From assembly GCA_018333715.1 (NCBI GenBank), contig JAGXSW010000068.1, positions 1-39,326 of the forward strand: DNA of 39,326 nucleotides, in the 5' to 3' direction. Both the position numbers and the translations under genes were made by a program. This document shows positions 1 to 22,714 of the stretch, in pieces (position 1 is the stretch's first letter; the number at the start of each line of letters is the position of its first letter). This DNA is from Syntrophaceae bacterium (GTDB taxonomy: Bacteria; Desulfobacterota; BSN033; UBA1163). The notes under the pieces are model-generated. The model was not told the DNA's origin, searched no databases, and was given only the letters and a program-made list of their open reading frames with translations.

Positions 1-102
1 AAAACCGGTGTCCAGTGTTTTTATAAGTGCTTGAGATTACTGGATTCCGGCTTTCGCCGGAATGACGATCGTTAGGATTTTTCGACTTTTTACGAGACCA
101 TC
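1..102. mobile_element. MITE family A copy, left end truncated by the window edge
   Basis: Aligns base-for-base with 23548-23657 (AAAACCGGTGTCCAGTG...CTGGATTCC-N-GGAATGAC...GACTTTTTACGAGACCATC). Ends with the same terminal repeat as the other copies. Confidence 0.8.
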
Positions 103-410
103 AAGTTATGACTCTACTCTTTTTGACCATTTGGAGGAGTTCGGGAGAAACTCGAAAAACCCAGAATGAAATTGTCAGGGAATATAAACGGATTTTCCGG
201 CCTATGATATCTACAGAGATGATTTGACCGGTAAATTTTTATAACCAGTTGAATATATTTGCTTATGGATTGATTAAAGATTAGGCAAATCGTTAAAGAA
301 TTTGAAGGGCACGCCATTTTAAAACTGAAAACTTTAAGTTATCAACAGGGTTTAAACAAAAAATGTGGGAAATAAGTCTAACTAATTAAAATCATTTATT
401 AAATAGAAAA

Positions 411-443
411 GGGATCAGTTAGAGGAGGGCTTTAACTGATCCC
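411..443. promoter_or_regulatory. 10-bp perfect inverted repeat GGGATCAGTT-N13-AACTGATCCC, candidate activator site (UAS)
   Basis: Arms read directly. Centre lies about 125 bp upstream of the -24 element at 551. No T-run follows, so it is not a typical terminator. Confidence 0.3.
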
Positions 444-550
444 AACCAGCGCATCAATTTGGGGTGAAACAAGGAGGTGATATGATTTGATGCACTGGCC
501 AAATTAAATGTAACAGATAAAAGAAAAAATATCAAATTGTAAATTGTTTT

Positions 551-565
551 TGGCACAGGATTTGC
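551..565 (+). promoter_or_regulatory. sigma-54 (-24/-12) promoter TGGCAC-AGGAT-TTGC
   Basis: Exact match to TGGCAC-N5-TTGC. The ATG of the next gene is 15 nt after the GC. Confidence 0.75.
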
Positions 566-580
566 TGGTATTATTATATT

Positions 581-1108
581 ATGAAGATTATTCTCCTTAT
601 TATTCTTCTCATCTTTATTTCAACTCCTGGATTCGCACAGATTTATAAATGGGTGGACGATAAAGGGGGCGTCCATTTTACGGATGATGTGACAAAAATT
701 CCCGATAAATACAGACTTGAAACTGATAAAATTGGAGTGTCCGAAGAAAAAAGCGAAACCAAAATTGAAGGTGATCCATCCTCAAAGAGAAAGGAAGATG
801 CTTATAAAGACCAATTAGGCAGGGGTGAGGAATACTGGAAGAATAGGGTTGAGGAATGGAAGATGAAATTGAGGACAGCCCAGGAAAAAATGGAGAGCAC
901 AAGAATAAAATATAATGAATTGACGGAAAGGTTTAATGATTCGAAAAGTTCCGCAGAGAGAAACCAACTCAGGAGAGAAAGAGATCAGGTCAAACAAGAG
1001 TTGGATCAATATAAAAGCCAATTTGAAGAAGCGAGGACAATGCTTGAAAAGAAGCTCCCTGAAGAAGCGGAGATATATAAGGCAAAGCAGGAGTGGATCA
1101 AACAGTGA
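581..1108 (+). CDS. DUF4124-domain secreted protein with coiled-coil C-terminus
   Basis: Signal peptide MKIILLIILLIFISTPGFAQ followed by IYKWVDDKGGVHFTD, the DUF4124 signature. The rest is charged and heptad-like. Confidence 0.8.
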   Translation: MKIILLIILLIFISTPGFAQIYKWVDDKGGVHFTDDVTKIPDKYRLETDKIGVSEEKSETKIEGDPSSKRKEDAYKDQLGRGEEYWKNRVEEWKMKLRTAQEKMESTRIKYNELTERFNDSKSSAERNQLRRERDQVKQELDQYKSQFEEARTMLEKKLPEEAEIYKAKQEWIKQ

Positions 1109-1348
1109 AAAGATTTCATAGAAGCTAAAAAATGTATTCAACCATCCCAAAATGGCTAACTCTTTATTTTTAAAGTTATATTCATTTCCACAAACCATAC
1201 TTCATAATTATTTAAGAAGAATCATTCAAATATTTGGGAATTGGTATCATTTTTGCGAATTGATGATTTAATCGACTTTGACCAAAAATGAGCGTTCATG
1301 TGGCAAGAAATTAGCCAATTCAACTTCAAATCGTTGATACCCAGAGAA

Positions 1349-1363
1349 TGGCATTAAAAATGC
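1349..1363 (+). promoter_or_regulatory. candidate sigma-54 promoter TGGCAT-TAAAA-ATGC
   Basis: Correct GG-N10-GC spacing, with two mismatches to the TGGCAC-N5-TTGC consensus. ATG 1380 lies 16 nt after the GC, the same geometry as at 551 and 32214. Confidence 0.4.
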
Positions 1364-1379
1364 ATATATTTTATTTATA

Positions 1380-1775
1380 ATGAAATTGGATATGAATAAC
1401 CAAACGACAGAGAGGAAGATGGGGGTTCTTGCCGTCGAGAAAAGACGGTATCCAAGATATACCGCCGAATTTCCCCTGGACTATGCCCGGATCGATGACA
1501 AAGGAACTTATGGTGGAATGATCGCCAATGTGAGCGAAGGGGGATTGCTGGTCTACCTGCCTCAACGGATGGAGATGGGAACCGTATTAAAAATCGAAAT
1601 CCTTTACGTTCAGGGGTTGGAATTTAACACGATCAAAGCTGTTGCGAAAATAGTTTGGTCTGATCTGGCGGCAAAAGAGAGCTACGGAGAGTATCGTTAC
1701 GGTTTGCAATTCCTCCACATCGAAGAGAAGGAATTTGCCAGATTGATCAATTTGTTAAAGGAGATTGGTAAATGA
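1380..1775 (+). CDS. PilZ domain protein (c-di-GMP binding type)
   Basis: RRYPR (RxxxR) followed by NVSEGG (D/NxSxxG). Alternative start ATG 1419 sits behind AGAGGAAG. Confidence 0.85.
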   Translation: MKLDMNNQTTERKMGVLAVEKRRYPRYTAEFPLDYARIDDKGTYGGMIANVSEGGLLVYLPQRMEMGTVLKIEILYVQGLEFNTIKAVAKIVWSDLAAKESYGEYRYGLQFLHIEEKEFARLINLLKEIGK

Positions 1776-1910
1776 AAAGATGATCCTCGGATCATCAACC
1801 GTCCCAGCCCATCCTATTTGCCATCCCGTGTTGTTTTACCTCGCCTTTTTTAGAAACATAAAAAATCACTTGAACTTTTTTAAAAAATTGTTAAGAATAG
1901 GAGTGTTTCT

Positions 1911-1948
1911 GGGGAGGGCAGGGGCGGGGGATTGCCTCTCCCTTTTTA
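1911..1948 (+). terminator. putative rho-independent terminator
   Basis: GGGGAGGGC...GCCTCTCCC stem with one bulge, followed by TTTTTA. Confidence 0.45.
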
Positions 1949-1999
1949 TAAGAATCCGGGACCGTTTCTAACATCAAACTGAATGCTGACAGAAAAGGC

Positions 2000-3919
2000 A
2001 TGATGGTTCAATTTCATATGGAAGATGAAAAGTATCGGGTCATCCTCCATCGAATCGGAGGAAACACTGAAGAAGAGAAGGCCCGTTTCTGCGGGGTGGT
2101 TTCAGAAAATTATGGAATACCCCTGCCCCTGATGGAAAAGATCGCTGATCGCTGTCCCATTGTCATTAAAAAAGATCTCCCATTTAAAAAGGCGGAAATG
2201 TTAGCGATTGCTTTTAAATCCTCCGGAGCCTCTGTCTCAGTGGAAAAGAAGAGGAATCTCTCTCCTGTTTTCCTTGAATTCATGACCACAGGAACCTGCC
2301 GGTTGGGATTGGAATCATCCAATCTCCGGAAGTCTCCCGGAGGGGCATGGCAGGTATTCGGGAGGATTCAAAACATCTCCAGCGAAGAACTTCACGATGT
2401 CTGGGCTCTGATTCAACTCTTCGACGAATATGAAGAGTTGATCGCCTTCGAAGAGATTCCTCTCCCCATCAATCCCCTTTCTCCCAATGAATCCTCTCCT
2501 TTTAAGGCCATTTTTGAAGGGGAGCTTCCTGTGCAAAAAATTTCCATCGCTTTTAGGAACGCTTCAGGGAATCCACTCCCGGCAATGGATAAGAGGCAGA
2601 AGAGGGAATGGGTGGAAGTGAAGATAGCTGAAACCCGGGAAAAAAGCGGACCCCTTCCTTTGACCGAAATATCTGAAGAGGTTCTTCCCGCCTTTGAGCC
2701 TCAAATCTCTCTTATCCCCGAAGGGATTGAAGAGAAGCTCGAAAAAGAGGGGACGGAAGGGGCTTCGGTAGAAATCTCGCCGCCTGGGACAGAAGAGCTC
2801 CCTTTAACTTCAGATGAAGAAATAAAAAGCCCCGGAGAAGAGTTTGCCCTGAATTTCTTTGAAAAGGGCGGACCACAACAGGAGGAGAAGAAAGGAAAAG
2901 AAGAAGAGAGATTTGAAATTGTGACGGAAGAAGATCGCGCCCAGGAAGTGATTCGGGCTCTTATGGACGAAGGAACTCCCGATGAAGAGGATCTTCGTCT
3001 CGATTATCCCGCGGATGATCGAACAGAGGATATCCGCCGTATTGAACCGGACTTCCCCTTATACGAAAAAGGGGCGCCTGTTATGGGAGAAAAACCTGCG
3101 ACTGTTGAAACAAAAACGGAGGGGGAAACTTTCCACTGCTCGTGGCTGGAAGATTTCAAAAAGGCCATTGAGGTCTATGGTCAAATGAATAGGGATCCCT
3201 TTTTATTCTGGTTTCAAGATCTCCAGAAGAAAGGGCAATTCGAGGATGCCTATCATTCCCTCTTAACCCTATTGATCTACGCCCGATTCAATCAAACTTA
3301 TCCCTCGGACACCGCATTGGAAAATACCAAGAAGGTATTTCCTCTGATGCTCCAAACGGACCTGCCTCACGAGGAATTCCCTCCATTGGAGAGGGCTCTC
3401 TTCTTTCCGCCAGATGTGTGGAGAGACCTATACATCAGGGCCATCCCTAAACTTCAGGAAGTGTCTTTTCGAGTGATGGAGGGAAAAGGATGGGAAACGT
3501 CCGATCTGGATCGGTTGATTCGCATCATCCCTCACATGACTGCAAGAAATAGCCGTTGGGCCATTCGCGCCATCCATGACTGGATCCCGGGGGTCGTCCC
3601 CGATGTTTCAGATATGTCCATTGATATAAGTGAAGGCCTTTACCGGGTGGCTTCCCGATTAGGAGTGGTCAACCCGTTATTCGATTATTATCAGGGGAAA
3701 AATTCGACGGGTGATATGAGGATTCAATCCTTTGCCAGGGCGGCTTTTCCTGACGATCCGGGAAAAATCGAGGAACCGATGAGCCGGTTAGGAACAAAAG
3801 ACGAAGGGGGAAATTGTTGGCCGACCGAACCCCAATGCCAGGATTGCCCCTTCGAGAGCTTCTGCCAAAAACTCTTTGTAGATTTTAACCCGGCAGAAAA
3901 AGGGATGATTCTTCGATAA
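2000..3919 (+). CDS. 639-aa multidomain protein with a divergent HhH-GPD/endonuclease-III-like C-terminal domain carrying a 4Fe-4S cluster loop
   Basis: - C-terminus CWPTEPQCQDCPFESFC is exactly C-X6-C-X2-C-X5-C.
- Upstream, LLTLLIYARFNQ...TKKVFPL, IPHMTARNSRWAIRAI and SIDISEGLYRVASRLGVV line up with EndoIII helices, HhH and the VDTH region.
- Middle region is acidic and disordered.
- N-terminus PIVIKKDLPFKKAEMLAIAFKSSGASVSVEKK resembles an L7/L12 C-terminal fold. Confidence 0.85.
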   Translation: MMVQFHMEDEKYRVILHRIGGNTEEEKARFCGVVSENYGIPLPLMEKIADRCPIVIKKDLPFKKAEMLAIAFKSSGASVSVEKKRNLSPVFLEFMTTGTCRLGLESSNLRKSPGGAWQVFGRIQNISSEELHDVWALIQLFDEYEELIAFEEIPLPINPLSPNESSPFKAIFEGELPVQKISIAFRNASGNPLPAMDKRQKREWVEVKIAETREKSGPLPLTEISEEVLPAFEPQISLIPEGIEEKLEKEGTEGASVEISPPGTEELPLTSDEEIKSPGEEFALNFFEKGGPQQEEKKGKEEERFEIVTEEDRAQEVIRALMDEGTPDEEDLRLDYPADDRTEDIRRIEPDFPLYEKGAPVMGEKPATVETKTEGETFHCSWLEDFKKAIEVYGQMNRDPFLFWFQDLQKKGQFEDAYHSLLTLLIYARFNQTYPSDTALENTKKVFPLMLQTDLPHEEFPPLERALFFPPDVWRDLYIRAIPKLQEVSFRVMEGKGWETSDLDRLIRIIPHMTARNSRWAIRAIHDWIPGVVPDVSDMSIDISEGLYRVASRLGVVNPLFDYYQGKNSTGDMRIQSFARAAFPDDPGKIEEPMSRLGTKDEGGNCWPTEPQCQDCPFESFCQKLFVDFNPAEKGMILR

Positions 3920-3942
3920 GGGTGGAAAATCGGAGGAACCGG

Positions 3943-4332
3943 ATGGAGAAGTCGAAATCGATGAAAGATAGAAGAAAATCCCAGAGAATGATGCTGGACT
4001 TACCCCTTGAATACCGTGTGATGGATGCGCCTTATGCCCACGGAGGATTGATGGTCAATGCGAGCGAATTGGGCATCCTTGTCCAATCCGTGAAAAACCT
4101 CCCCATTGGGACAAAATTAAATGTAGCGGTCTTATTCCCCAAAGGCTTCGAATTGGCCAACTTTGAAGTTCTGGCCGAGATCCTCTGGAAGGACCTCCAT
4201 TGGGAGGAGGATTGGGAGGGGTACCAGTATGGGTTAAGATTCCTGCAGATTCTCGCTAACGAGCATTGGAAATTGAAACAGCTTTTGAACGGCCAATTCC
4301 ATTTGGAGGAGGTCCAACGAAATTATCGGTAA
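3943..4332 (+). CDS. PilZ domain protein
   Basis: RRKSQR (RxxxR) and NASELG. GGAGG lies 6 nt before ATG 3943. The ORF is open from GTG 3922, 3 nt after the upstream stop. Confidence 0.8.
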   Translation: MEKSKSMKDRRKSQRMMLDLPLEYRVMDAPYAHGGLMVNASELGILVQSVKNLPIGTKLNVAVLFPKGFELANFEVLAEILWKDLHWEEDWEGYQYGLRFLQILANEHWKLKQLLNGQFHLEEVQRNYR

Positions 4333-4347
4333 GGGCAGGGGGAGAGG

Positions 4348-4734
4348 ATGACAGAGAAAAAGGAGGGAAAGCCTCGCATCGGGATTGCCAACATTGAAAG
4401 AAGAAAGTATCCGCGCTTTTCAATCGACCTGCCGATCGAATATTATCCGATCAGCTCTCCCGACAGTCATATCGGCCGGGCGCTCAATGCGAGCGAGGGG
4501 GGATTGCTGGTTTACCTCCCGGAAAAGATGAAGGTTGGCCAACACCTCGGTTTGAAGCTCTTCTTCCACTCCGGTTCCCAGATGAATATCATCGAGATGA
4601 CAGGGGAAGTGATCTGGATTGATATCCACCTCGAGATGAACTGGGGGGATTATCGGACGGGTTTGAAGTTGATTGATATTTCTCCCGAAAATCTGCAGCG
4701 GCTGAAAGACTTCCTGCTCTCCCTTACAAATTAA
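4348..4734 (+). CDS. PilZ domain protein, close paralogue of 1380..1775
   Basis: RRKYPR and NASEGGLLVYLPEKM, compared with NVSEGGLLVYLPQRM in the first copy. Confidence 0.85.
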   Translation: MTEKKEGKPRIGIANIERRKYPRFSIDLPIEYYPISSPDSHIGRALNASEGGLLVYLPEKMKVGQHLGLKLFFHSGSQMNIIEMTGEVIWIDIHLEMNWGDYRTGLKLIDISPENLQRLKDFLLSLTN

Positions 4735-4763
4735 ACCCCATTTTTTTACTTGTCCGAATCTTC

Positions 4764-4792
4764 TTGTCAAAAGCAAAAAGAGGGATTATAAT
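4764..4792 (+). promoter_or_regulatory. sigma-70 type promoter TTGTCA-N17-TATAAT
   Basis: Hexamers and the 17-nt spacer counted directly. AAAGGAG RBS and ATG 4814 lie downstream. Confidence 0.6.
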
Positions 4793-4813
4793 TTTTTACA
4801 AAGGAGTGGAACA

Positions 4814-5002
4814 ATGAGTGGAAAAAGCAGCTTTCCATACCGCAAATTTGACAGGAAGCCTCACCCCCATATCGTCAAACAGATATTAGAGGATGAGGAG
4901 CTGGTCGAGATGATGAAGGAGATGCTCGTTAAGGAAGGCAAACCCTGTCCTTTTTGCCACCGAAAACTAAAGGACGAGGTTAAGGCCAGGGAAATATGGT
5001 AA
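4814..5002 (+). CDS. small hypothetical protein (62 aa) with a single CPFC motif
   Basis: Own promoter, AAAGGAG RBS, charged non-repetitive sequence. No recognisable family. Confidence 0.5.
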   Translation: MSGKSSFPYRKFDRKPHPHIVKQILEDEELVEMMKEMLVKEGKPCPFCHRKLKDEVKAREIW

Positions 5003-5043
5003 TAAAAAGTTTTATAATGGCCGATCCATCAACCGCTCATTCC

Positions 5044-5385
5044 CTACATATTTTCGTCAGGAAATTCCCTGGTAAAAGAGAATTTTAAAGGATTGAGCAT
5101 AAACATTTTTGCTGAATCTTTTACGGCGTTTGAAGGTTTATCTTCTATTCGTGAGAAAATATCAACCGTTATAGTGAAAGGAAGTGAAACGGAAAAAATT
5201 CCCAATCCCGCGATCGCAGCGACAACCCCTAATGGCCTCGCAACCATTAAATCAATCGTATTCCATTGGTCTGTAATCGGATCATCCTTTTTCCATCTAT
5301 CCCATGCCAATGCATTCGGATAAATACTCCCGGCAATCATTGCGGAAATCAGAATTAATAAGAATGCTTTTTTATATCTCTTCAT
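5044..5385 (-). CDS. small membrane or secreted protein of unknown function
   Basis: AAGGAGGG RBS 4 nt before ATG at 5385. MKRYKKAFLLILISAMIAGS signal or TM segment plus a second hydrophobic segment GVVAAIAGLGIFSVSLPF. Confidence 0.6.
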   Translation of the reverse strand: MKRYKKAFLLILISAMIAGSIYPNALAWDRWKKDDPITDQWNTIDLMVARPLGVVAAIAGLGIFSVSLPFTITVDIFSRIEDKPSNAVKDSAKMFMLNPLKFSFTREFPDENM

Positions 5386-5842
5386 GGGGCCCTCCTTTTT
5401 GGTTTTATCAGATATGATTCTATCAGAAGCAGATGCCTTTGTCAATCATTCCAAGCGAATAGATCAGTCATCGGAAAATAAGAGAGAAGGTAAAAGTTAT
5501 CGGAAGGTTTTCATCCACCAGACAGAAATGATTTTGGCGATGAATAACTTGCTGATCAGGAGATGGATCTTCAAAAGATAAAGGCTGGCCAGCGTTTCTT
5601 CCTTGGTTATTCTAAACATCCATCAAGACCTCTTAAACTCGAACCAGTGAAATGGTAAGGAGAATGGTCATAAACTCTGACCCTAGCGGGAGCAAGGGTT
5701 GATTTAAAAAGAGAGAGGAGGAAAAGAGAGATGATTGTCTGAATCATATGCATCGATTGAATCATATAAAATATGAATGCAATAATTTTGCCAATTCTCG
5801 AAATATAATATAACTGACTGAAACCATTTGAAAATACGGATA

Positions 5843-5872
5843 ATTTAAACTTAAATTTTTTTAAGTTTAAAT
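5843..5872. repeat. 13-bp perfect palindrome ATTTAAACTTAAA-TTTT-TTTAAGTTTAAAT
   Basis: Read directly. Lies in an AT-rich divergent intergenic region about 680 bp long. Confidence 0.7.
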
Positions 5873-5993
5873 GCAAAGAGTGACATAGATTGTCAATGGA
5901 TTGAAAAAGGGTCAGCTCTGGAACTCGCTCATTTCTCGTTTTTAAAGATAAGGTTTGGGGAATGGGATGAATTTTTGAAATTTGAAAAAACGC

Positions 5994-6022
5994 TTGACAA
6001 CAGGCAAGAAAATCGTTATTAA
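5994..6022 (+). promoter_or_regulatory. sigma-70 type promoter TTGACA-N17-TATTAA
   Basis: Perfect -35, 17-nt spacer, 4/6 match at -10. About 40 nt upstream of the HNH gene. Confidence 0.5.
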
Positions 6023-6063
6023 CCTTAAAATTCAACAGGAATCACAGGCTATCCTCATAAGCG

Positions 6064-6588
6064 ATGGAATGGACATTACTTCTCAACTCGACTTTTGAAC
6101 CTTTGAGGGTGGTGACCTGGAAAAAGGCAATCATTATGGTCATGCTTGGCAAGGTGGAAGTGATCGAAGAGTATGAGCGGGCCATCAGGGGAATCAGGGT
6201 CTCGATCCATCTTCCGGCTGTCATTCGTTTGCACCGGTTTATCAGAAGAAAAACGCCCATCGTTAAATTTTCCAGGCAAAATTTGTATGTTCGGGACAGA
6301 GGGGTATGTCAATATTGCGGGACCCCTTTCGAGCATAAAGAGTTGACCTATGATCATGTCGTTCCCCGCTCCAAAGGCGGGCAAACGGAATGGACAAATG
6401 TGGTAACCTGTTGCGCCGCTTGTAACCTCAGAAAGGGAGGGAGAACGCCGGAAGAGGCGGGCATGCCCCTGATCAAAAAGCCTAAAGCCCCCATCTGGAT
6501 TCCCCTATTGACCAAGAGTCTCGGGATCGATGAAACTCCTTCTTCCTGGAGGGACTATCTCTACCTTAATCGGGAATTGTCACTATAA
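6064..6588 (+). CDS. HNH endonuclease (McrA/COG1403-like, about 170 aa class)
   Basis: CQYCG...DHVVPRSKGG..WTNVVTCCAACNLRKG is the HNH beta-beta-alpha metal finger. Confidence 0.9.
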   Translation: MEWTLLLNSTFEPLRVVTWKKAIIMVMLGKVEVIEEYERAIRGIRVSIHLPAVIRLHRFIRRKTPIVKFSRQNLYVRDRGVCQYCGTPFEHKELTYDHVVPRSKGGQTEWTNVVTCCAACNLRKGGRTPEEAGMPLIKKPKAPIWIPLLTKSLGIDETPSSWRDYLYLNRELSL

Positions 6589-6636
6589 AGTTAAAAAACT
6601 AACCCATGCTCTCCCGACACACCAGAGGGAAAGGCC

Positions 6637-7155
6637 ATGAAATATCTTTGGGCTCCTTGGAGAATGAATTACATTTTGAAACACAAAGAAAAGGAATGCA
6701 TCTTCTGCCTTAAACCGAGTCGTGAGAGAGACAGAGAAAATCTCATCCTGTATCGAGGGAAGCGCGCCTTTGTGATGATGAACAGATATCCTTACAATAA
6801 TGGGCATCTGATGATCGTTCCACATCGGCACTGCCTCGATCTGGAATCCTTAAACCATCTCGAGTCGAAAGAACTCTTTGAACTATTAAAGGTTTCCATC
6901 AGAGCATTAAAGCTCTCTCTCTCCCCGCAAGGTTTCAATATTGGCGTCAATATAGGAAAGGTCGGGGGAGCCGGCGAGGGCCACATCCATTTTCATATCG
7001 TTCCCCGCTGGGCAGGGGACACCAATTTTATGCCGATCTTGGGAGAGACGAAGATCGTTCCGGAGTATCTTTCAAGCACTTACCAGAGACTTCATTCTTC
7101 GTTTGTCAATCATCTGAAAAAAAGAACGAGGCAGAAAGGAGGGGGAAAAAAGTGA
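6637..7155 (+). CDS. HIT family hydrolase/phosphorylase
   Basis: Histidine triad HIHFHIVPR. N-terminal LWAPWRMNYI is typical of the Ap4A-phosphorylase-like branch. Confidence 0.9.
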   Translation: MKYLWAPWRMNYILKHKEKECIFCLKPSRERDRENLILYRGKRAFVMMNRYPYNNGHLMIVPHRHCLDLESLNHLESKELFELLKVSIRALKLSLSPQGFNIGVNIGKVGGAGEGHIHFHIVPRWAGDTNFMPILGETKIVPEYLSSTYQRLHSSFVNHLKKRTRQKGGGKK

Positions 7156-7484
7156 AATGGTTAAAAACGCTTCTGATCATGATCATCTTCATCCTTGTCA
7201 TCCTGTTCTCCCTTCAAAACAGGGAGGAGGTGGGCCTCCGATTTGGCCTTTATCCCATCCAGGACCGGTTTTGGGAGGTTCCAAAACTTCCCCTCTTTTT
7301 AATCATCCTCTGTTCCGTCTTCGTGGGAGTGTTGATCGGGGGAATCGGAGACCTTTACCAGAGGTTTCAACTTAAAAAATCACTTCGCCAAAATGAGAAA
7401 ATGATTGAGAGATTGAGCAGGGAGGTGGAGACGCTTCGGGGCTCAGGGATGGAGCAACCCTCATATCTTAAAAGAGACGTTTGA
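7152..7484 (+). CDS. LapA-domain (DUF1049) inner membrane protein
   Basis: Two TM segments followed by a charged coiled tail LKKSLRQNEKMIERLSREVETLR. GTG start overlaps the HIT gene stop. Confidence 0.7.
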   Translation: MKWLKTLLIMIIFILVILFSLQNREEVGLRFGLYPIQDRFWEVPKLPLFLIILCSVFVGVLIGGIGDLYQRFQLKKSLRQNEKMIERLSREVETLRGSGMEQPSYLKRDV

Positions 7485-7584
7485 TCTTTTTAAACCCCCA
7501 GAAAAAGGGTCTCCTCGTCAAAATTATTCTCTTGCAATTAAGATAAAATTGTAGTATATTTTTTTTACAGAATCGGGTCTGCTG

Positions 7585-7615
7585 AAAAAGCGGGCTTTTT
7601 GCCCGCTTTTTTTTT
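7585..7615 (+). terminator. rho-independent terminator
   Basis: AAAAAGCGGGC-TTTTT-GCCCGCTTTTT followed by a T-run. Confidence 0.8.
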
Positions 7616-7643
7616 AGGACGGCCCTTTAAAAGGGAAAGCAGG

Positions 7644-8102
7644 ATGTCAGGGGAGATTATCGACCGGGTGATGAAAATCATCGGCCCCATCCTTTTAGAT
7701 GAAGGGATGGAATGTGTGGATCTGGAATACCGGAGGGAGGCAAGAGGATGGGTCTTGCGCCTTTACATCGATAAAGAGGGAGGGGTCACGCTCGACGATT
7801 GCGCCAGAATCAATCAGCAAGTGGGAAGAACATTAGATGTGGAAAACCCCATTGACACCCCTTATCATTTGGAGGTCTCTTCTCCCGGTTTGACACGACC
7901 CCTAAAGACCCAAAGAGATTTCGTGAAATATCAGAATCGTCTGGTCAAGATCAAGACCGCTGAACCCATCGGGAACCAACGACAGTTTAGGGGAAGACTT
8001 TTAAGGGTCGTCACTGAAGGGATTGAGATCGAAATGGATGGAAAGGCATTTCATATTCCTTTTCAAAACATAGCAAAGGCACGTTTAGAATTGGAGTTTT
8101 AA
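7644..8102 (+). CDS. rimP: ribosome maturation factor RimP
   Basis: VDLEYRREARGWVLRLYIDKEGGVTLDDC...LEVSSPGLTRPL. The ORF-track start at 7599 lies inside the terminator, so ATG 7644 is preferred. Confidence 0.9.
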   Translation: MSGEIIDRVMKIIGPILLDEGMECVDLEYRREARGWVLRLYIDKEGGVTLDDCARINQQVGRTLDVENPIDTPYHLEVSSPGLTRPLKTQRDFVKYQNRLVKIKTAEPIGNQRQFRGRLLRVVTEGIEIEMDGKAFHIPFQNIAKARLELEF

Positions 8103-19902: not shown

Positions 19903-20086
19903 ATCAGTGCAAATTGCAAAATAGTCAATTAGCAATTAGCATTAAAAAATGAATTCAAGTGGTTTTTAACATTGTTAACTTTGTATTGCTAATTTTGCAT
20001 TGTTAATTGATTATTTTATTGGTTCAAGTGGTTTTTAACATTGCTAACTTTGCACTGCTAAATTTGCATTGTTAATTGATTATTTC
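19903..20086. repeat. family D AT-rich repeat including a two-copy tandem duplication of about 69 bp
   Basis: TTCAAGTGGTTTTTAACATTG(T/C)TAACTTTG...GCATTGTTAATTGATTATTT occurs at 19954 and again at 20023. GCAAAATTAGCA-type arms are shared with 9806-10050. Confidence 0.8.
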
Positions 20087-22714
20087 ATGGAAGTGATCAC
20101 CACTCATATAAATGCTGATTTCGATTCTCTGGCTTCCATGCTGGCAGCCAAAAAACTCTATCCGGGAGCGGTCCTGGTCTTCCCAGGCTCCCAGGAGAGG
20201 AGCCTGCGGGAGTTCTTCATCCACTCCACCCTCTATGCCCTCGAGGTGGAACGGGTGAAAAATATTGACCTCCGCCAGATCGAAAGGTTGATCCTGGTCG
20301 ACACCCGTCAGACCAGCCGGATCGGGAAATTTTCGGAGATCGTGATGAAGCCCGGCCTGGATATCCATATTTACGATCACCATCCTCCTTCTTCAGATGA
20401 TATTCGGGGCTCTCTAGAGGTTGTTGCGGAAGTGGGAGCCACCGTCACACTTCTTCTGGACCTCTTGAGGAAAAAAGGGGTTGACATCACGCCTGATGAA
20501 GCCACGGTGATGCTCCTTGGCATCTATGAGGATACGGGAAACCTGACCTTCTCCTCGGCCAGAGAGGAGGATTTTAAGGCGGCAGGATATCTGGTGGGAA
20601 AAGGAGCCAACCTCAATATTCTGTCGAACGTGATCACCAAAGAGCTCACCTCGGAACAGGTCTTCCTGCTCAATGACCTGATTCAGTCGGCTACCCGGTA
20701 CGATGTCCACGGCATCGATGTGGTGATTGCGCAGGCATCTGTGGATTGGTATATCGGTGACATTGCCATCCTCGTCCATAAGTTAAAGGATATGGAGAAC
20801 CTCGATGTCCTTTTCGTCCTCGTCCAGATGGAAGGTCGTGTCTACCTGATTGGAAGGAGCAGGATTGAGGAAGTCAATGTCTCAGAAATAGCCTCTGAAT
20901 TTGGAGGCGGCGGCCACCCCACCGCCGCCTCAGCAACCATCAAGGGAATGCCGCTCATCGAGGCGCATCGGCGGTTGCTCAAAGTGTTGAGACAGGTCGT
21001 CAGGCCAAGAAGGGTGGCCAAGGACCTCATGGTCTATCCGGTCAAGACGGTGGAACCCGACCGGACTCTGGAGGAGGCAGGAGAGATCCTTTCCCGATAT
21101 CTGCTCGATATTCTCCCGGTCTTTAAAGAGGAGAGAGTGGTTGGACTCATCTCCAAGGAAGTGGTGGACAGGGCGGTTCGTCACGGGCTAAAGGAGGCCC
21201 TTGTGAAAGAGTATATGACGACGGAGTTCTCTGCCGTCTCACCGGAAACCCCCTTTTCCCGAATTCAGGAATTGGCCATCGGACAGAGCCAGAGCCTCAT
21301 CCCGGTCATCGAAAAGGAGCGGCTCGTTGGGGTTGTAGCTCTCGGCGATGTGATGCAGGTCCTCCACGAGGGGATGATCAAATCGGTGAGAGAGATTCAA
21401 CCCCTTTATGCGCGAAAGAAGATGATCTCAAAATTGATGGAGGAGCGATTTCCGGAAAGGATACGGAACCTCCTTGCAGAATTTGGCCGGGTAGGGGATG
21501 AGCTGGGATATTCGGTCTTCGGCGTGGGAGGTTTTGTCAGGGACCTCCTGATGAGGGTGGAAAACGACGATATCGATATCGTTGTGGAGGGCGACGGGAT
21601 CCGTCTCTCTGAGGAATTCGAAAAAAGATTTCACTGCCGGATTCGAACCCACAAAAAATTCGGGACCGCCCTCATTCTCTTCTCGGATGGCCTTAAGGTG
21701 GATGTGGCGACCGCGCGCCTGGAGGTCTATGACTCTCCGGCCGCCCTTCCCACGGTGGAAAGGGGGTCGATCAAGGCGGACCTTTATCGCAGGGACTTTA
21801 CCATCAATACGCTGGCCATCCACCTCAATCCCCGGTCCTTCGGAGAATTGATCGATTTTTTCGGCGGGATGAAAGATATTAAGGAGAAGGTGATTCGTGT
21901 CCTTCATAATCTCTCCTTTGTGGAGGATCCGACCCGCGTCTTTCGGGCGATCCGTTTCGAACAACGCTTGAAGTTCCAGATCGGGAAGCCCACCCAGAAT
22001 CTGATGAAGAATGCGGTCAAGATGTCCATCTTTGATCGACTTTCAGGGGGACGGATTCTCTCAGAGCTTATTCTCATCTGCCAGGAAGAGGATCCCATCC
22101 CTGCCATGAAACGGATGAGAGATTTCAACCTCTTCCATTTTCTCCATCCCCAACTCAAAGTGGACGAGGAGAAGATCGCCCTCTTCGAACAGATTCATCA
22201 TGTCATCTCCTGGTTTGACCTTCTCTTCCTCGAGGAGAAATATGAGAGTTGGCTCATCTACTTTTACGGCCTCATCGATTCCCTCCAGGAGCGGGAGAGC
22301 CTGGAGATCTGCGAACGATTGTCGATGAATGACCGTCTGAAAAAAAGTGTGATTGAGGGAAAACGCCAGGGCGATCTGGCTTTATTCAAGATATACTCCT
22401 GGATCAGCGCCGGGAAAGAACCCAGACGTTCGGAGATTTACACGATTCTCGATTCCCTTTCAACGGAGGTCAAACTGTTGATGATGGCCAAGACAACCCG
22501 GATGGCCACCCGTCGATACATCTCTCTCTACTTTACCCAGTTGAAGGGTACGAAACCGATATTGAGAGGGGCCGACCTGGTTCAAATGGGAATCAAACCC
22601 GGACCTTCCATTCGGGAGGGTTTGGAGGATCTTCTCAAAGCCCGACTCGACGAACAGGTGATCACACGACAGGATGAGTTACAATACTTGACCAGATCTC
22701 TCAGGGTGGAATGA
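20087..22714 (+). CDS. DHH/DHHA1 phosphoesterase - CBS pair - class II nucleotidyltransferase (CCA-adding / poly(A) polymerase family) fusion protein
   Basis: - DHH/DHHA1 motifs: HINADFDSLAS, LVDT, YDHHP, EDTG, GGGGHP.
- Two CBS modules.
- Nucleotidyltransferase motifs: GVGGFVRDLL..DDIDIVVEG and RRDFTINTLA.
- ATG 20087 preferred over TTG 20069, which lies in the repeat. Confidence 0.9.
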   Translation: MEVITTHINADFDSLASMLAAKKLYPGAVLVFPGSQERSLREFFIHSTLYALEVERVKNIDLRQIERLILVDTRQTSRIGKFSEIVMKPGLDIHIYDHHPPSSDDIRGSLEVVAEVGATVTLLLDLLRKKGVDITPDEATVMLLGIYEDTGNLTFSSAREEDFKAAGYLVGKGANLNILSNVITKELTSEQVFLLNDLIQSATRYDVHGIDVVIAQASVDWYIGDIAILVHKLKDMENLDVLFVLVQMEGRVYLIGRSRIEEVNVSEIASEFGGGGHPTAASATIKGMPLIEAHRRLLKVLRQVVRPRRVAKDLMVYPVKTVEPDRTLEEAGEILSRYLLDILPVFKEERVVGLISKEVVDRAVRHGLKEALVKEYMTTEFSAVSPETPFSRIQELAIGQSQSLIPVIEKERLVGVVALGDVMQVLHEGMIKSVREIQPLYARKKMISKLMEERFPERIRNLLAEFGRVGDELGYSVFGVGGFVRDLLMRVENDDIDIVVEGDGIRLSEEFEKRFHCRIRTHKKFGTALILFSDGLKVDVATARLEVYDSPAALPTVERGSIKADLYRRDFTINTLAIHLNPRSFGELIDFFGGMKDIKEKVIRVLHNLSFVEDPTRVFRAIRFEQRLKFQIGKPTQNLMKNAVKMSIFDRLSGGRILSELILICQEEDPIPAMKRMRDFNLFHFLHPQLKVDEEKIALFEQIHHVISWFDLLFLEEKYESWLIYFYGLIDSLQERESLEICERLSMNDRLKKSVIEGKRQGDLALFKIYSWISAGKEPRRSEIYTILDSLSTEVKLLMMAKTTRMATRRYISLYFTQLKGTKPILRGADLVQMGIKPGPSIREGLEDLLKARLDEQVITRQDELQYLTRSLRVE

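What the first reader, a model, noticed from the sequence alone, without database searches (positions are those of the whole stretch)
2000..4734. Candidate undescribed module: a 639-aa FeS/HhH-GPD-like multidomain protein in an operon with two PilZ receptors, with a third PilZ paralogue just upstream
Three stand-alone PilZ proteins lie within 3.4 kb, and all keep RxxxR and D/NxSxxG. Two of them follow the 639-aa gene with gaps of 2-23 nt and 15 nt, which implies co-translation.

The large protein joins four parts:
- an L7/L12-CTD-like N-terminus;
- a region resembling a beta-sandwich (QVFGRIQNISSEE..IQLFDEYEELIAFEE, FxLYD-like);
- an acidic disordered linker of about 180 aa;
- a DNA-glycosylase-superfamily C-terminal domain.

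I know of no described pathway that couples c-di-GMP receptors to a base-excision-type DNA-binding fold. The partnership suggests either c-di-GMP-controlled DNA binding or repair, or a glycosylase fold repurposed as a signalling scaffold.
Basis: partly seen in the sequence, partly recalled or inferred. Interest (0 to 1): 0.72.

Follow-up and report, generated by a model that had tools for sequence, protein, structure and literature searches.

The report
PilZ-linked scaffold with dead glycosylase domain
A conserved but unnamed 639-residue protein of uncultured sulfate-reducer relatives joins a ribosomal-stalk-like domain to an inactivated iron-sulfur DNA-glycosylase fold and always sits beside small c-di-GMP receptor (PilZ) genes, which suggests an undescribed second-messenger output module rather than a DNA-repair enzyme.

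Summary
Four same-strand genes are present: PilZ (1380-1775), a 639-aa protein here called BIG (2000-3919), and two more PilZ genes (3922/3943-4332 and 4348-4734). All three PilZ pass Pfam's threshold and keep RxxxR and NxSxxG.

All four proposed parts of BIG were confirmed:
- a bL12-CTD-like domain (1ctf, TM 0.80);
- an Ig-like beta-sandwich;
- a variable acidic linker of 106-245 aa;
- an all-alpha C-domain whose best structural matches are all HhH-GPD glycosylases, with an invariant C-x6-C-x2-C-x5-C loop.

The C-domain is a pseudo-enzyme. A rare sister clade, stand-alone or fused to or next to DUF6884/YaaA-like proteins, sits in helicase/UvrC contexts without PilZ. It keeps the HhH Lys and the GPD Asp and is basic. 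BIG has lost both residues and is acidic, so c-di-GMP-controlled base excision is unlikely.

The PilZ link follows the N-terminal module. A second family (BIG2, about 603 aa) shares only that module. It lies elsewhere in the genome, again with DUF4124 and arrays of the same PilZ subfamily.

The most likely reading is a c-di-GMP/PilZ-addressed Fe-S scaffold. Its output is unknown. No family model or paper found here describes it.

The parts
581..1108 (+). DUF4124 protein with an N-terminal signal-peptide-like segment and a charged coiled-coil tail. It is a co-conserved neighbour.
   Evidence: Pfam DUF4124 at E 1.8e-8. Present upstream in 31 of 36 BIG loci. Relatives with 30-37% identity flank the second family, BIG2, one of them 7-9 nt upstream of BIG2.
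1380..1775 (+). PilZ-up, a stand-alone PilZ receptor of 131 aa in its own transcription unit.
   Evidence: Pfam PilZ at 4.3e-15. Motifs RRYPR and NVSEGG are present. An ortholog lies upstream of BIG in 35 of 36 loci.
1870..1898 (+). Conserved sigma-70-like promoter element, TTGAAC-17 nt-AAGAAT, for the BIG-PilZ-PilZ operon.
   Evidence: It is the only block conserved across the intergenic regions of 10 loci. Sequence read. Function is inferred.
1912..1949 (+). GC-rich hairpin followed by a T-run in the presumed 5' leader of the BIG operon (terminator-like).
   Evidence: It is conserved only in close relatives, its stability is not above shuffled controls (z -0.5), and there is no Rfam match.
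2000..3919 (+). BIG, a 639-aa multidomain protein. It belongs to a family of about 144 clusters at 90% identity, all labelled hypothetical.
2033..2251 (+). BIG residues 12-84: bL12 (L7/L12) C-terminal-domain-like alpha/beta domain.
2297..2620 (+). BIG residues about 100-207: Ig-like beta-sandwich. Together with the bL12-like domain it forms the N-module shared with BIG2.
   Evidence: Model and Foldseek matches to DUF1425, IrmA, ApaG and the Wzt carbohydrate-binding domain. Weak FxLYD match. Sequence relatives include DUF3426-type proteins. hhalign against BIG2 gives E 7.7e-34.
2621..3124 (+). BIG residues 208-375: poorly conserved acidic linker, presumably disordered.
   Evidence: Length 106-245 aa, 20-34% Asp+Glu, pI 4.25. 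Disorder is inferred; this segment was not modelled.
3125..3916 (+). BIG residues 376-639: HhH-GPD-fold domain with an Fe-S cluster loop. It lacks the catalytic Asp and Lys and is acidic, so it is a pseudo-glycosylase.
3815..3865 (+). Cys606-x6-Cys613-x2-Cys616-x5-Cys622, with the spacing of the endonuclease III/MutY [4Fe-4S] cluster loop.
   Evidence: Invariant in 40 of 40 sequences. A Cys-loop pattern scan matched all 114 scanned members. It aligns to the NTHL1, MutY and endonuclease III loops.
3922..4332 (+). PilZ-d1, co-transcribed with BIG. The likely start is ATG 3943, preceded by GGAGGA.
   Evidence: Pfam PilZ at 8.5e-7. Motifs RKSQR and NASELG are present. Junction read. An ortholog is present in 24 of 36 loci.
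4348..4734 (+). PilZ-d2, the last gene of the operon.
   Evidence: Pfam PilZ at 1.5e-12. Motifs RKYPR and NASEGG are present. Junction read. An ortholog is present in 22 of 36 loci. A strong promoter-like site for the next gene follows at 4764-4792.

Best explanation
The locus encodes a lineage-specific c-di-GMP output module of Thermodesulfobacteriota (MAGs labelled Syntrophaceae or Syntrophorhabdus). BIG is a cytoplasmic, strongly acidic scaffold.

**Parts.**
- Its N-module (a bL12-CTD-like domain plus an Ig-like beta-sandwich) is the part functionally tied to a dedicated subfamily of single-domain PilZ receptors and to a DUF4124 protein.
- Its C-domain descends from a small clade of endonuclease-III-like [4Fe-4S] glycosylases. 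It has lost the catalytic Lys and Asp, the G-x-G hairpin and the basic surface, but it keeps the four cluster cysteines.

**Proposed mechanism.** The PilZ proteins bind c-di-GMP and, as adaptors, dock on BIG, most plausibly on the N-module. They thereby change what the Fe-S pseudo-glycosylase domain and the acidic linker engage. The Fe-S domain acts as a redox-sensitive or protein-binding module, not as a base-excision enzyme.

**Shown here.** The gene set and operon layout, the domain folds, the loss of catalytic residues, and the two independent neighbourhood associations.

**Inferred.** c-di-GMP binding, a physical PilZ-BIG contact, cluster occupancy and the output.
For: **Operon.**
- The gaps are 23 (or 2) nt and 15 nt, each followed by a ribosome-binding site.
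- A promoter-like element conserved across 10 loci lies upstream of BIG, and a separate promoter-like site follows PilZ-d2.

**PilZ.**
- All three exceed the Pfam threshold.
- RxxxR is present in 81 of 83 locus-linked PilZ ORFs and [DN]xSxxG in 80 of 83. The exceptions are truncated ORF calls, plus one protein with NAGEGG in place of the Ser.
- The three genes form three old orthologous groups that are about 34% identical to each other.

**Neighbourhood.**
- PilZ-up lies upstream of BIG in 35 of 36 genomes. One or two downstream PilZ genes occur in 29 of 36.
- Independent support comes from BIG2 (about 603 aa, 37 clusters). It shares only residues about 5-200 with BIG (hhalign E 7.7e-34) and has an unrelated C-domain.
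- BIG2 lies in a different macro-synteny (rpoZ/gmk/GTPase ... dxs). It is nevertheless preceded by PilZ-YbjQ-DUF4124 and followed by DUF4124-HTH and 3-5 PilZ genes that Pfam recognises. Three of these per locus are 32-43% identical to the window's PilZ.

**Pseudo-enzyme.**
- The sister clade is clearly homologous (hhalign probability 100, E 1e-77). It keeps an invariant G-x-K-T and P-[VI]-D (Asp in 38 of 43, GxK[TV] in 34).
- Those motifs align to endonuclease III PVD.
- The sister clade is basic and BIG is acidic.
- The sister clade sits with UvrD/PD-(D/E)XK, SF1 helicase, UvrC and YaaA/DUF6884 genes, and with no PilZ.

**Cluster ligands.** The four Cys are invariant.
Against: - No physical or genetic evidence links the PilZ proteins to BIG. 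Adjacency is the only evidence.
- The whole region from DUF4124 to rimP is syntenic across the 36 BIG genomes, so that census on its own could reflect shared ancestry.
- BIG and BIG2 both come from one phylum rich in PilZ paralogues, and genome-wide PilZ density was not measured.
- About four complete BIG loci (L012, L018, L032, L033) have no downstream PilZ, so d1 and d2 are dispensable.
- DUF4124 looks exported, which does not fit a cytoplasmic complex.
- Foldseek TM scores to HhH-GPD structures are modest (0.39-0.46), and sequence E-values to endonuclease III are marginal (0.004-0.02).
- The nearly conserved Glu545 (34 of 40), next to the lost Asp, could in principle substitute as a catalytic residue.
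- Docking on the N-module rather than elsewhere is a guess.
Confidence: 0.45

Rival explanations
1. BIG is an active, c-di-GMP-regulated DNA glycosylase or DNA-lesion-binding repair protein.
For: - The C-domain has the HhH-GPD fold and an endonuclease III/MutY-type Cys loop.
- The RV-x-SRLG helix resembles the RVLSRL segment of MutY (the MutY sequence is recalled from memory). HMMER aligns this region of the C-domain profile to MutY structures only weakly (E 0.6-1.3).
- Its closest relatives look like real repair enzymes in repair contexts.
- Glu545, next to the lost Asp, is present in 34 of 40 sequences.
Against: - The Asp-equivalent position is Gly 57, Glu 13, Asn 11, Ser 9 and Asp only 7 of 114. 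The Lys-equivalent position is variable. The hairpin glycines are replaced.
- The whole protein has pI 4.75.
- The PilZ association is shared with BIG2, which lacks this domain.
Confidence: 0.1
2. There is no functional coupling. BIG and the PilZ genes are neighbours only through inherited synteny in a PilZ-rich lineage, and BIG acts independently of c-di-GMP.
For: - The whole 8-kb region is syntenic in most of the 36 loci, and housekeeping genes (HNH, HIT, rimP) are conserved in order.
- About four complete loci lack downstream PilZ.
- PilZ-up has its own promoter region.
Against: - The spacing is tight and translationally coupled in appearance.
- One BIG locus (L034) encodes a fused tandem PilZ directly after BIG.
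- The trio of DUF4124, the N-module protein and the same PilZ subfamily recurs at a second, non-syntenic genomic location for BIG2.
- Only these three PilZ genes occur in the 39-kb window.
- Sister-clade proteins, which lack the N-module, have no PilZ neighbours.
Confidence: 0.2
3. BIG is a translation- or ribosome-linked regulator. Its bL12-CTD-like domain mimics the ribosomal stalk to bind translational GTPases, under PilZ/c-di-GMP control.
For: - The domain superposes on the bL12 C-terminal domain at TM 0.80 with 24-27% identity.
- The BIG locus lies 3.7 kb upstream of rimP-nusA-infB.
- BIG2 lies near a GTPase (MMR_HSR1+TGS) gene.
Against: - In the HMMER alignment, the bL12 helix-4 residues I recall as factor-binding (V66, I69, K70, R73; from memory, not checked) align with variable residues or with Cys31 and Ser35.
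- BIG has no bL12 N-terminal dimerisation or bL10-binding domain.
- The proximity to rimP and to the GTPase gene is separated by several unrelated genes and promoters.
Confidence: 0.1

Closest known systems
Endonuclease III (Nth/NTHL1) and MutY: HhH-GPD glycosylases with a [4Fe-4S] cluster loop
   Same: - All-alpha two-lobe fold; they are the best Foldseek matches.
- The C-x6-C-x2-C-x5-C loop lies at the C-terminus.
- The helix that follows the catalytic Asp aligns (hhalign E 0.0044), and the sister-clade profile matches Deinococcus endonuclease III at E 0.021.
   Different: - No Pfam HhH-GPD match.
- The catalytic Asp and Lys are lost and the G-x-G hairpin is replaced.
- The domain is acidic rather than basic.
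- It is fused behind a bL12-like domain, a beta-sandwich and an acidic linker, and it lies in an operon with PilZ genes.
Unnamed sister clade of stand-alone or DUF6884-fused HhH-GPD/Fe-S proteins (for example P0154 and P0169)
   Same: Homologous over the full 260 residues (hhalign probability 100, E 1e-77), with the same ARFxQ, ALENT and YRVxxRLG motifs and the same Cys loop.
   Different: - It keeps G-x-K-T and P-[VI]-D and is basic.
- It is fused to, or lies next to, DUF6884/YaaA-like proteins, which Pfam's curators propose to be DNA-repair related (PMC11701544).
- Its neighbourhoods hold helicase or UvrC genes and no PilZ.
- It has no N-module.
Single-domain PilZ adaptors (for example MapZ/PA4608 of Pseudomonas and DgrA of Caulobacter; from general knowledge, not tested here)
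   Same: Small stand-alone PilZ proteins with intact RxxxR and D/NxSxxG motifs. They are expected to act by binding a partner protein when loaded with c-di-GMP.
   Different: - The candidate partner (BIG or BIG2) belongs to a family not described in the libraries searched here.
- Three or more paralogues sit in one locus.
- Neither ligand binding nor the partner has been shown.
Catalytically dead HhH-GPD homologues such as S. pombe Mag2 (recalled from the literature, not checked here)
   Same: They set a precedent for a glycosylase fold that has lost the catalytic Asp and no longer excises bases.
   Different: As I recall, Mag2 still binds DNA (abasic sites) and is a single-domain repair-pathway protein. 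BIG's domain is acidic, carries an Fe-S loop and is embedded in a signalling-type locus.
Ribosomal protein bL12 (L7/L12), C-terminal domain
   Same: Same alpha/beta fold (TM 0.80, rmsd 2.3 A, 27% identity to 1ctf). The family profile matches at E 0.012.
   Different: - No N-terminal dimerisation domain or hinge.
- The score is below Pfam's threshold for this protein.
- The factor-binding residues are apparently not kept (this rests on memory of which residues they are).
- It forms the N-terminus of a 639-aa protein.

Membership tests
PilZ domain (Pfam PF07238), canonical c-di-GMP receptor | The profile score exceeds the curated gathering threshold. | tested here: met
   56.3, 29.7 and 48.2 bits against 22.5 for the three proteins.
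PilZ domain (Pfam PF07238), canonical c-di-GMP receptor | The RxxxR and (D/N)xSxxG ligand-binding motifs are present. | tested here: met
   RRYPR/NVSEGG, RKSQR/NASELG and RKYPR/NASEGG. The motifs are kept in 81 and 80 of 83 locus-linked homologues.
PilZ domain (Pfam PF07238), canonical c-di-GMP receptor | The protein binds c-di-GMP. | not testable with these tools
   Needs ITC, DRaCALA or a similar assay.
HhH-GPD DNA glycosylase superfamily (endonuclease III/MutY branch) | The overall two-lobe all-alpha fold. | tested here: met
   The ten best PDB matches of a model with pLDDT 86.7 are all HhH-GPD enzymes. 1orn has probability 1.0 and E 0.0097; TM scores are 0.39-0.46.
HhH-GPD DNA glycosylase superfamily (endonuclease III/MutY branch) | The sequence profile (Pfam HhH-GPD PF00730) matches. 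| tested here: not met
   No hit at E <= 1 in any of 40 members. Only marginal PDB profile hits were found.
HhH-GPD DNA glycosylase superfamily (endonuclease III/MutY branch) | A helix-hairpin-helix with a G-x-G hairpin. | tested here: not met
   The hairpin reads P-H-M-(T/G/S)-x-x-N-S-R. The sister clade has (Y/F)-x-G-x-K-T.
HhH-GPD DNA glycosylase superfamily (endonuclease III/MutY branch) | A catalytic Asp caps the helix after the Gly/Pro-rich loop. | tested here: not met
   The equivalent position 544 is Gly 22, Ser 6, Asn 4, Gln 3 and Asp 2 of 40, and Asp in 7 of 114. The alignment is supported.
HhH-GPD DNA glycosylase superfamily (endonuclease III/MutY branch) | A catalytic Lys in the HhH (bifunctional endonuclease III type). 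| tested here: not met
   Position 516 is Arg 13, Gln 10, Lys 8, Pro 5 and other residues.
HhH-GPD DNA glycosylase superfamily (endonuclease III/MutY branch) | The C-x6-C-x2-C-x5-C [4Fe-4S] cluster loop. | tested here: met
   Cys606, 613, 616 and 622 are invariant. Cluster occupancy itself cannot be tested here.
Ribosomal protein bL12 (Pfam Ribosomal_L12, PF00542) | The profile score exceeds the gathering threshold. | tested here: not met
   13.5 bits against 25.9 for this protein, although 35 of 40 members match at E <= 1, the best at 1.1e-5.
Ribosomal protein bL12 (Pfam Ribosomal_L12, PF00542) | The C-terminal-domain fold. | tested here: met
   TM 0.80 and rmsd 2.3 A to 1ctf.
Ribosomal protein bL12 (Pfam Ribosomal_L12, PF00542) | An N-terminal dimerisation/bL10-binding domain and a hinge, in a protein of about 120 aa. 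| tested here: not met
   The domain starts at residue about 12 of a 639-aa protein.
FxLYD domain (NCBIfam NF038353) | The profile score exceeds the cutoff. | tested here: not met
   12.5 bits against 23. The fold is a generic Ig-like sandwich, and more distant sequence relatives include DUF3426-type proteins.

The most novel reading that the evidence does not exclude
The bL12-CTD-like plus beta-sandwich N-module defines a new class of PilZ-addressed effector proteins. Dedicated PilZ paralogues dock on it in a c-di-GMP-dependent way and switch interchangeable C-terminal output domains. In BIG the output domain is a redox-active [4Fe-4S] pseudo-glycosylase, so the module would integrate second-messenger and redox signals in strictly anaerobic syntrophs.
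Probability: 0.3. Interest if true: 0.75.

Novelty: new variant of a known kind. Interest (0 to 1): 0.56.

Why it matters
Single-domain PilZ proteins are common, but few have known partners. This locus offers a concrete and repeatedly conserved candidate partner family. None of the family libraries (Pfam, NCBIfam, PADLOC) or paper searches used here describes it.

The work also adds to the HhH-GPD superfamily. It identifies a small clade of endonuclease-III-like Fe-S proteins that pair with DUF6884/YaaA-like proteins. It also identifies a derived branch that kept the cluster but lost catalysis, a clear case of a repair enzyme recruited as a pseudo-enzyme.

If the PilZ-BIG link is real, it would be a c-di-GMP output unrelated to the usual motility and exopolysaccharide targets, in a phylum where c-di-GMP biology is largely unexplored.

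The main limits are that every member comes from an uncultured MAG and that the output is unknown.

Tried and rejected
- **c-di-GMP or other riboswitch in the leader or intergenic regions.** Rfam gave no match at gathering thresholds on the whole window, and none at E <= 1 on 1100-2050. The leader hairpin is no more stable than shuffled sequence.
- **Anti-phage defence system.** PADLOC found nothing for BIG, BIG2 or the PilZ proteins. Only the generic HNH gene at 6064-6588 matched HNH models.
- **Direct sequence identification of BIG.** phmmer against the PDB found nothing. Pfam and NCBIfam gave only sub-threshold hits.
- **Homology between the BIG2 C-domain and the BIG or sister C-domain.** hhalign found none, and there was no informative PDB hit.
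- **A BIG-PilZ fusion (Rosetta-stone evidence).** None of the homologues listed has a recorded PilZ domain or a length that suggests one. Only a PilZ-PilZ fusion was seen, in L034.
- **The neighbourhood census as proof of coupling.** I down-weighted it once the whole region proved syntenic. The BIG2 loci were used as the independent test instead.
- **Literature linking PilZ or c-di-GMP to endonuclease III, HhH-GPD or DNA glycosylases.** Nothing relevant was found.

Full report
**1. What is in the sequence**

Window 1-8000 carries a run of same-strand genes:
- a DUF4124 protein, 581-1108;
- a 131-aa PilZ, 1380-1775 (PilZ-up);
- a 639-aa ORF, 2000-3919 (here called BIG);
- a 136-aa PilZ, 3922-4332 (PilZ-d1);
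- a 128-aa PilZ, 4348-4734 (PilZ-d2).

All three PilZ proteins pass Pfam's curated threshold. All three carry RxxxR and NxSxxG.

BIG's TAA stop is at 3917-3919. PilZ-d1 can start at GTG 3922, but ATG 3943 follows a GGAGGA site. PilZ-d2 starts 15 nt after the d1 stop and has its own purine-rich site. A near-consensus promoter-like site (TTGTCA-17-TATAAT, 4764-4792) follows PilZ-d2 and serves the next gene.

Between PilZ-up and BIG, one block is conserved across ten related loci: TTGAAC-17 nt-AAGAAT at 1870-1898. The layout is therefore PilZ-up on its own, then a BIG-PilZ-d1-PilZ-d2 operon.

**2. Anatomy of BIG**

BIG has no curated family.

A search of 5.8 billion proteins found about 144 clusters of 530-716 aa. 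Nearly all are labelled hypothetical, and those with an organism label come from Thermodesulfobacteriota/Deltaproteobacteria MAGs. A 40-sequence alignment (A1) shows three conserved blocks separated by one variable acidic stretch.

- *Residues 12-84.* The family profile matches the bL12 C-terminal domain at E 0.012. Thirty-five of 40 members match Pfam Ribosomal_L12 (best 1.1e-5). An AlphaFold2 model of residues 1-212 (pLDDT 85) superposes on 1ctf at TM 0.80 and 2.3 A with 27% identity.
- *Residues about 100-207.* This is an Ig-like beta-sandwich. Its best matches are DUF1425, IrmA, ApaG and the Wzt carbohydrate-binding domain. Sequence relatives are small proteins of the DUF3426/DUF2393 kind.
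- *Residues 208-375.* This is a poorly conserved linker of 106-245 aa with 20-34% Asp+Glu and pI 4.25.
- *Residues 376-639.* The model is all-alpha (pLDDT 86.7, pTM 0.84). Its ten best PDB matches are all HhH-GPD glycosylases: endonuclease III 1orn (probability 1.0, E 0.0097), NTHL1, OGG1 and AGOG, with TM 0.39-0.46. Cys606-x6-Cys613-x2-Cys616-x5-Cys622 is invariant. It aligns with the cluster loops of NTHL1, MutY and endonuclease III.

**3. The C-domain is an inactivated glycosylase fold**

An exhaustive HMMER search of 1.84 billion representatives found a rare sister clade. In it the same domain stands alone (about 266-330 aa) or is fused to DUF6884.

Profile-profile comparison leaves no doubt about homology (probability 100, E 1.2e-77 over 258 columns). 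The sister clade has an invariant G-x-K-T and an invariant P-[VI]-D just before the YRVxxRLG helix. Its profile aligns that PVD with the PVD of Deinococcus endonuclease III (E 0.021).

| Feature | BIG | Sister clade |
|---|---|---|
| Asp-equivalent position (544) | Gly 22, Ser 6, Asn 4, Gln 3, Asp 2 of 40; Asp in 7 of 114 | Asp in 38 of 43 |
| Lys-equivalent position (516) | Arg, Gln, Lys, Pro, variable | GxK[TV] in 34 |
| Hairpin | H-M-(T/G/S) | G-x-K-T |
| Median pI | 5.8 | 8.8 |
| Median net charge | -5 | +4 |

For comparison, E. coli Nth has pI about 8.4.

BIG's domain has therefore lost the catalytic residues and the electrostatics expected of a DNA enzyme, while keeping all four cluster ligands. 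Pfam's curators relate DUF6884 to YaaA and suggest a DNA-repair role for it (PMC11701544). Sister-clade genes sit beside UvrD/PD-(D/E)XK and SF1 helicases, UvrC, or a YaaA/DUF6884 gene, and never beside PilZ in the three contexts examined.

**4. Is the PilZ link real?**

One scan of 185,579 species-representative genomes returned 36 BIG loci. An HMM built from the three window PilZ proteins finds the following:
- A PilZ-up ortholog lies 136-465 nt upstream of BIG in almost all of the 35 loci that have one. In L029 the apparent gap is larger only because just BIG's C-terminal part was matched. The one locus without it is cut by the contig end.
- Both d1 and d2 lie downstream in 17 loci (window included), d1 only in 7, and d2 only in 6.
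- About four complete loci have no downstream PilZ.
- One locus (L034) encodes a fused tandem PilZ.

The binding motifs are retained throughout.

This census is weaker than it looks. The whole stretch DUF4124-PilZ-BIG-PilZ-PilZ-62-aa ORF-membrane protein-HNH-HIT-LapA-rimP is syntenic in most of these genomes.

The independent test came from a second family, BIG2 (about 603 aa, 37 clusters).
- It shares only the N-module with BIG (hhalign E 7.7e-34 over residues about 5-200). Its C-domain is unrelated.
- In five loci from four look-ups it lies in a different macro-synteny (rpoZ, gmk and a GTPase upstream, dxs downstream).
- The local order is nevertheless PilZ-YbjQ-DUF4124-BIG2-...-DUF4124-HTH_17, followed by three to five PilZ genes that Pfam recognises.
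- Three of those PilZ proteins per locus are 32-43% identical to the window's, and the DUF4124 proteins are 30-37% identical.

Together with the PilZ-free sister-clade contexts, this shows that the PilZ/DUF4124 association tracks the N-module and not the glycosylase fold.

**5. Most likely mechanism**

*Shown:* an operon of BIG with two canonical-looking PilZ genes; a constant third PilZ and a DUF4124 gene nearby; the domain folds; the pseudo-enzyme status; and the recurrence of the association in a paralogous family.

*Inferred:* the PilZ proteins bind c-di-GMP and act as adaptors on BIG, most plausibly on the shared N-module. The Fe-S pseudo-glycosylase domain and the acidic linker then provide a non-catalytic output, either redox-sensitive or protein-binding.

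I put this at about 0.45 overall. The component estimates are:

| Claim | Estimate |
|---|---|
| Domain architecture | about 0.9 |
| Pseudo-enzyme status | about 0.8 |
| Functional link to PilZ | about 0.7 |
| Docking on the N-module | about 0.35 |

The rivals are an active c-di-GMP-regulated glycosylase (0.1), mere synteny (0.2), and a stalk mimic acting on translational GTPases (0.1). For the last of these, the bL12 residues I recall as factor-binding are not kept in the alignment.

**6. Comparison with known systems, and novelty**

The PilZ proteins are ordinary members of PF07238. BIG's C-domain works like, and descends from, the endonuclease III/MutY branch. It fails the family's defining catalytic features, so it should not be filed as a glycosylase. 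S. pombe Mag2, which I recall from the literature, is a precedent for a dead HhH-GPD protein, but it binds DNA.

Neither BIG, BIG2 nor the sister clade has a Pfam, NCBIfam or PADLOC model. No paper in the searched library links PilZ to this fold.

I rate the finding a new variant of known kinds: a PilZ adaptor with a partner, and an HhH-GPD pseudo-enzyme. It is of moderate to good interest. Its limits are the absence of any functional read-out and the fact that every member comes from an uncultured organism.

Noticed in passing
window 4814-5002 (+), with a promoter-like site at 4764-4792: A 62-aa ORF (MSGKSSFPYRKFDRKPHPHIV...CPFCHRKL...) is 77-100% identical across 31 of 36 related loci. That is far more conserved than BIG. 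It has its own near-consensus promoter and no family assignment.
   Followed up: partly
window 1912-1949 (+): A GC-rich hairpin followed by TTTTT lies in the presumed 5' leader of the BIG operon, downstream of the conserved promoter-like element. It could be an attenuator. It is conserved only in close relatives, matches nothing in Rfam, and is not more stable than shuffled sequence.
   Followed up: partly
window 5445-6063: An AT-rich stretch of about 600 nt (GC about 0.37, against about 0.47 in the flanks) lies between the divergent 133-aa membrane-protein gene and the HNH gene. It has many promoter-like sites, only one ORF (142 aa) of implausible composition, and no Rfam match at gathering thresholds.
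   Followed up: no
P0154, P0162-P0172, P0180, P0302-P0334; loci L039-L041: A rare, unnamed clade of endonuclease-III-like Fe-S proteins has intact Lys and Asp. Its members are stand-alone, fused to DUF6884, or directly downstream of a YaaA/DUF6884 gene, and they sit next to UvrD/PD-(D/E)XK, SF1 helicase or UvrC genes. This may be an undescribed repair pair. In some members the second Cys of the loop is missing and a His-x-Gly precedes the next Cys.
   Followed up: partly
L037, L038, L042-L044 (BIG2 loci; for example L037 4322-13812): A second family (BIG2, about 603 aa) has the same N-module and an unassigned, highly conserved C-domain that ends in DYCQDGNCEHC. It sits amid two DUF4124 genes, YbjQ, an HTH_17 gene and an array of 3-5 PilZ genes that Pfam recognises.
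   Followed up: partly
L034 7996-8844: In one BIG locus the two downstream PilZ genes appear fused into a single tandem-PilZ ORF of about 283 aa (HMM score 291 bits).
   Followed up: no
P0225 (692 aa, from the representative search): A protein made of seven tandem bL12 C-terminal-domain repeats (Pfam Ribosomal_L12, E 3e-125, seven stretches). This is another non-ribosomal use of the fold.
   Followed up: no
window 6064-6588 (+): A stand-alone 174-aa HNH protein is 73-93% identical across 24 related loci. Its HNH domain resembles those of IscB, Cas9 and PtuB. It lies between the PilZ locus and the HIT-LapA-rimP-nusA-infB genes.
   Followed up: no
window 20069-22714 (+): An 881-aa protein combines DHH, DHHA1, CBS and a poly(A) polymerase/CCA-adding head domain. 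This is an unusual fusion and was not examined further.
   Followed up: no
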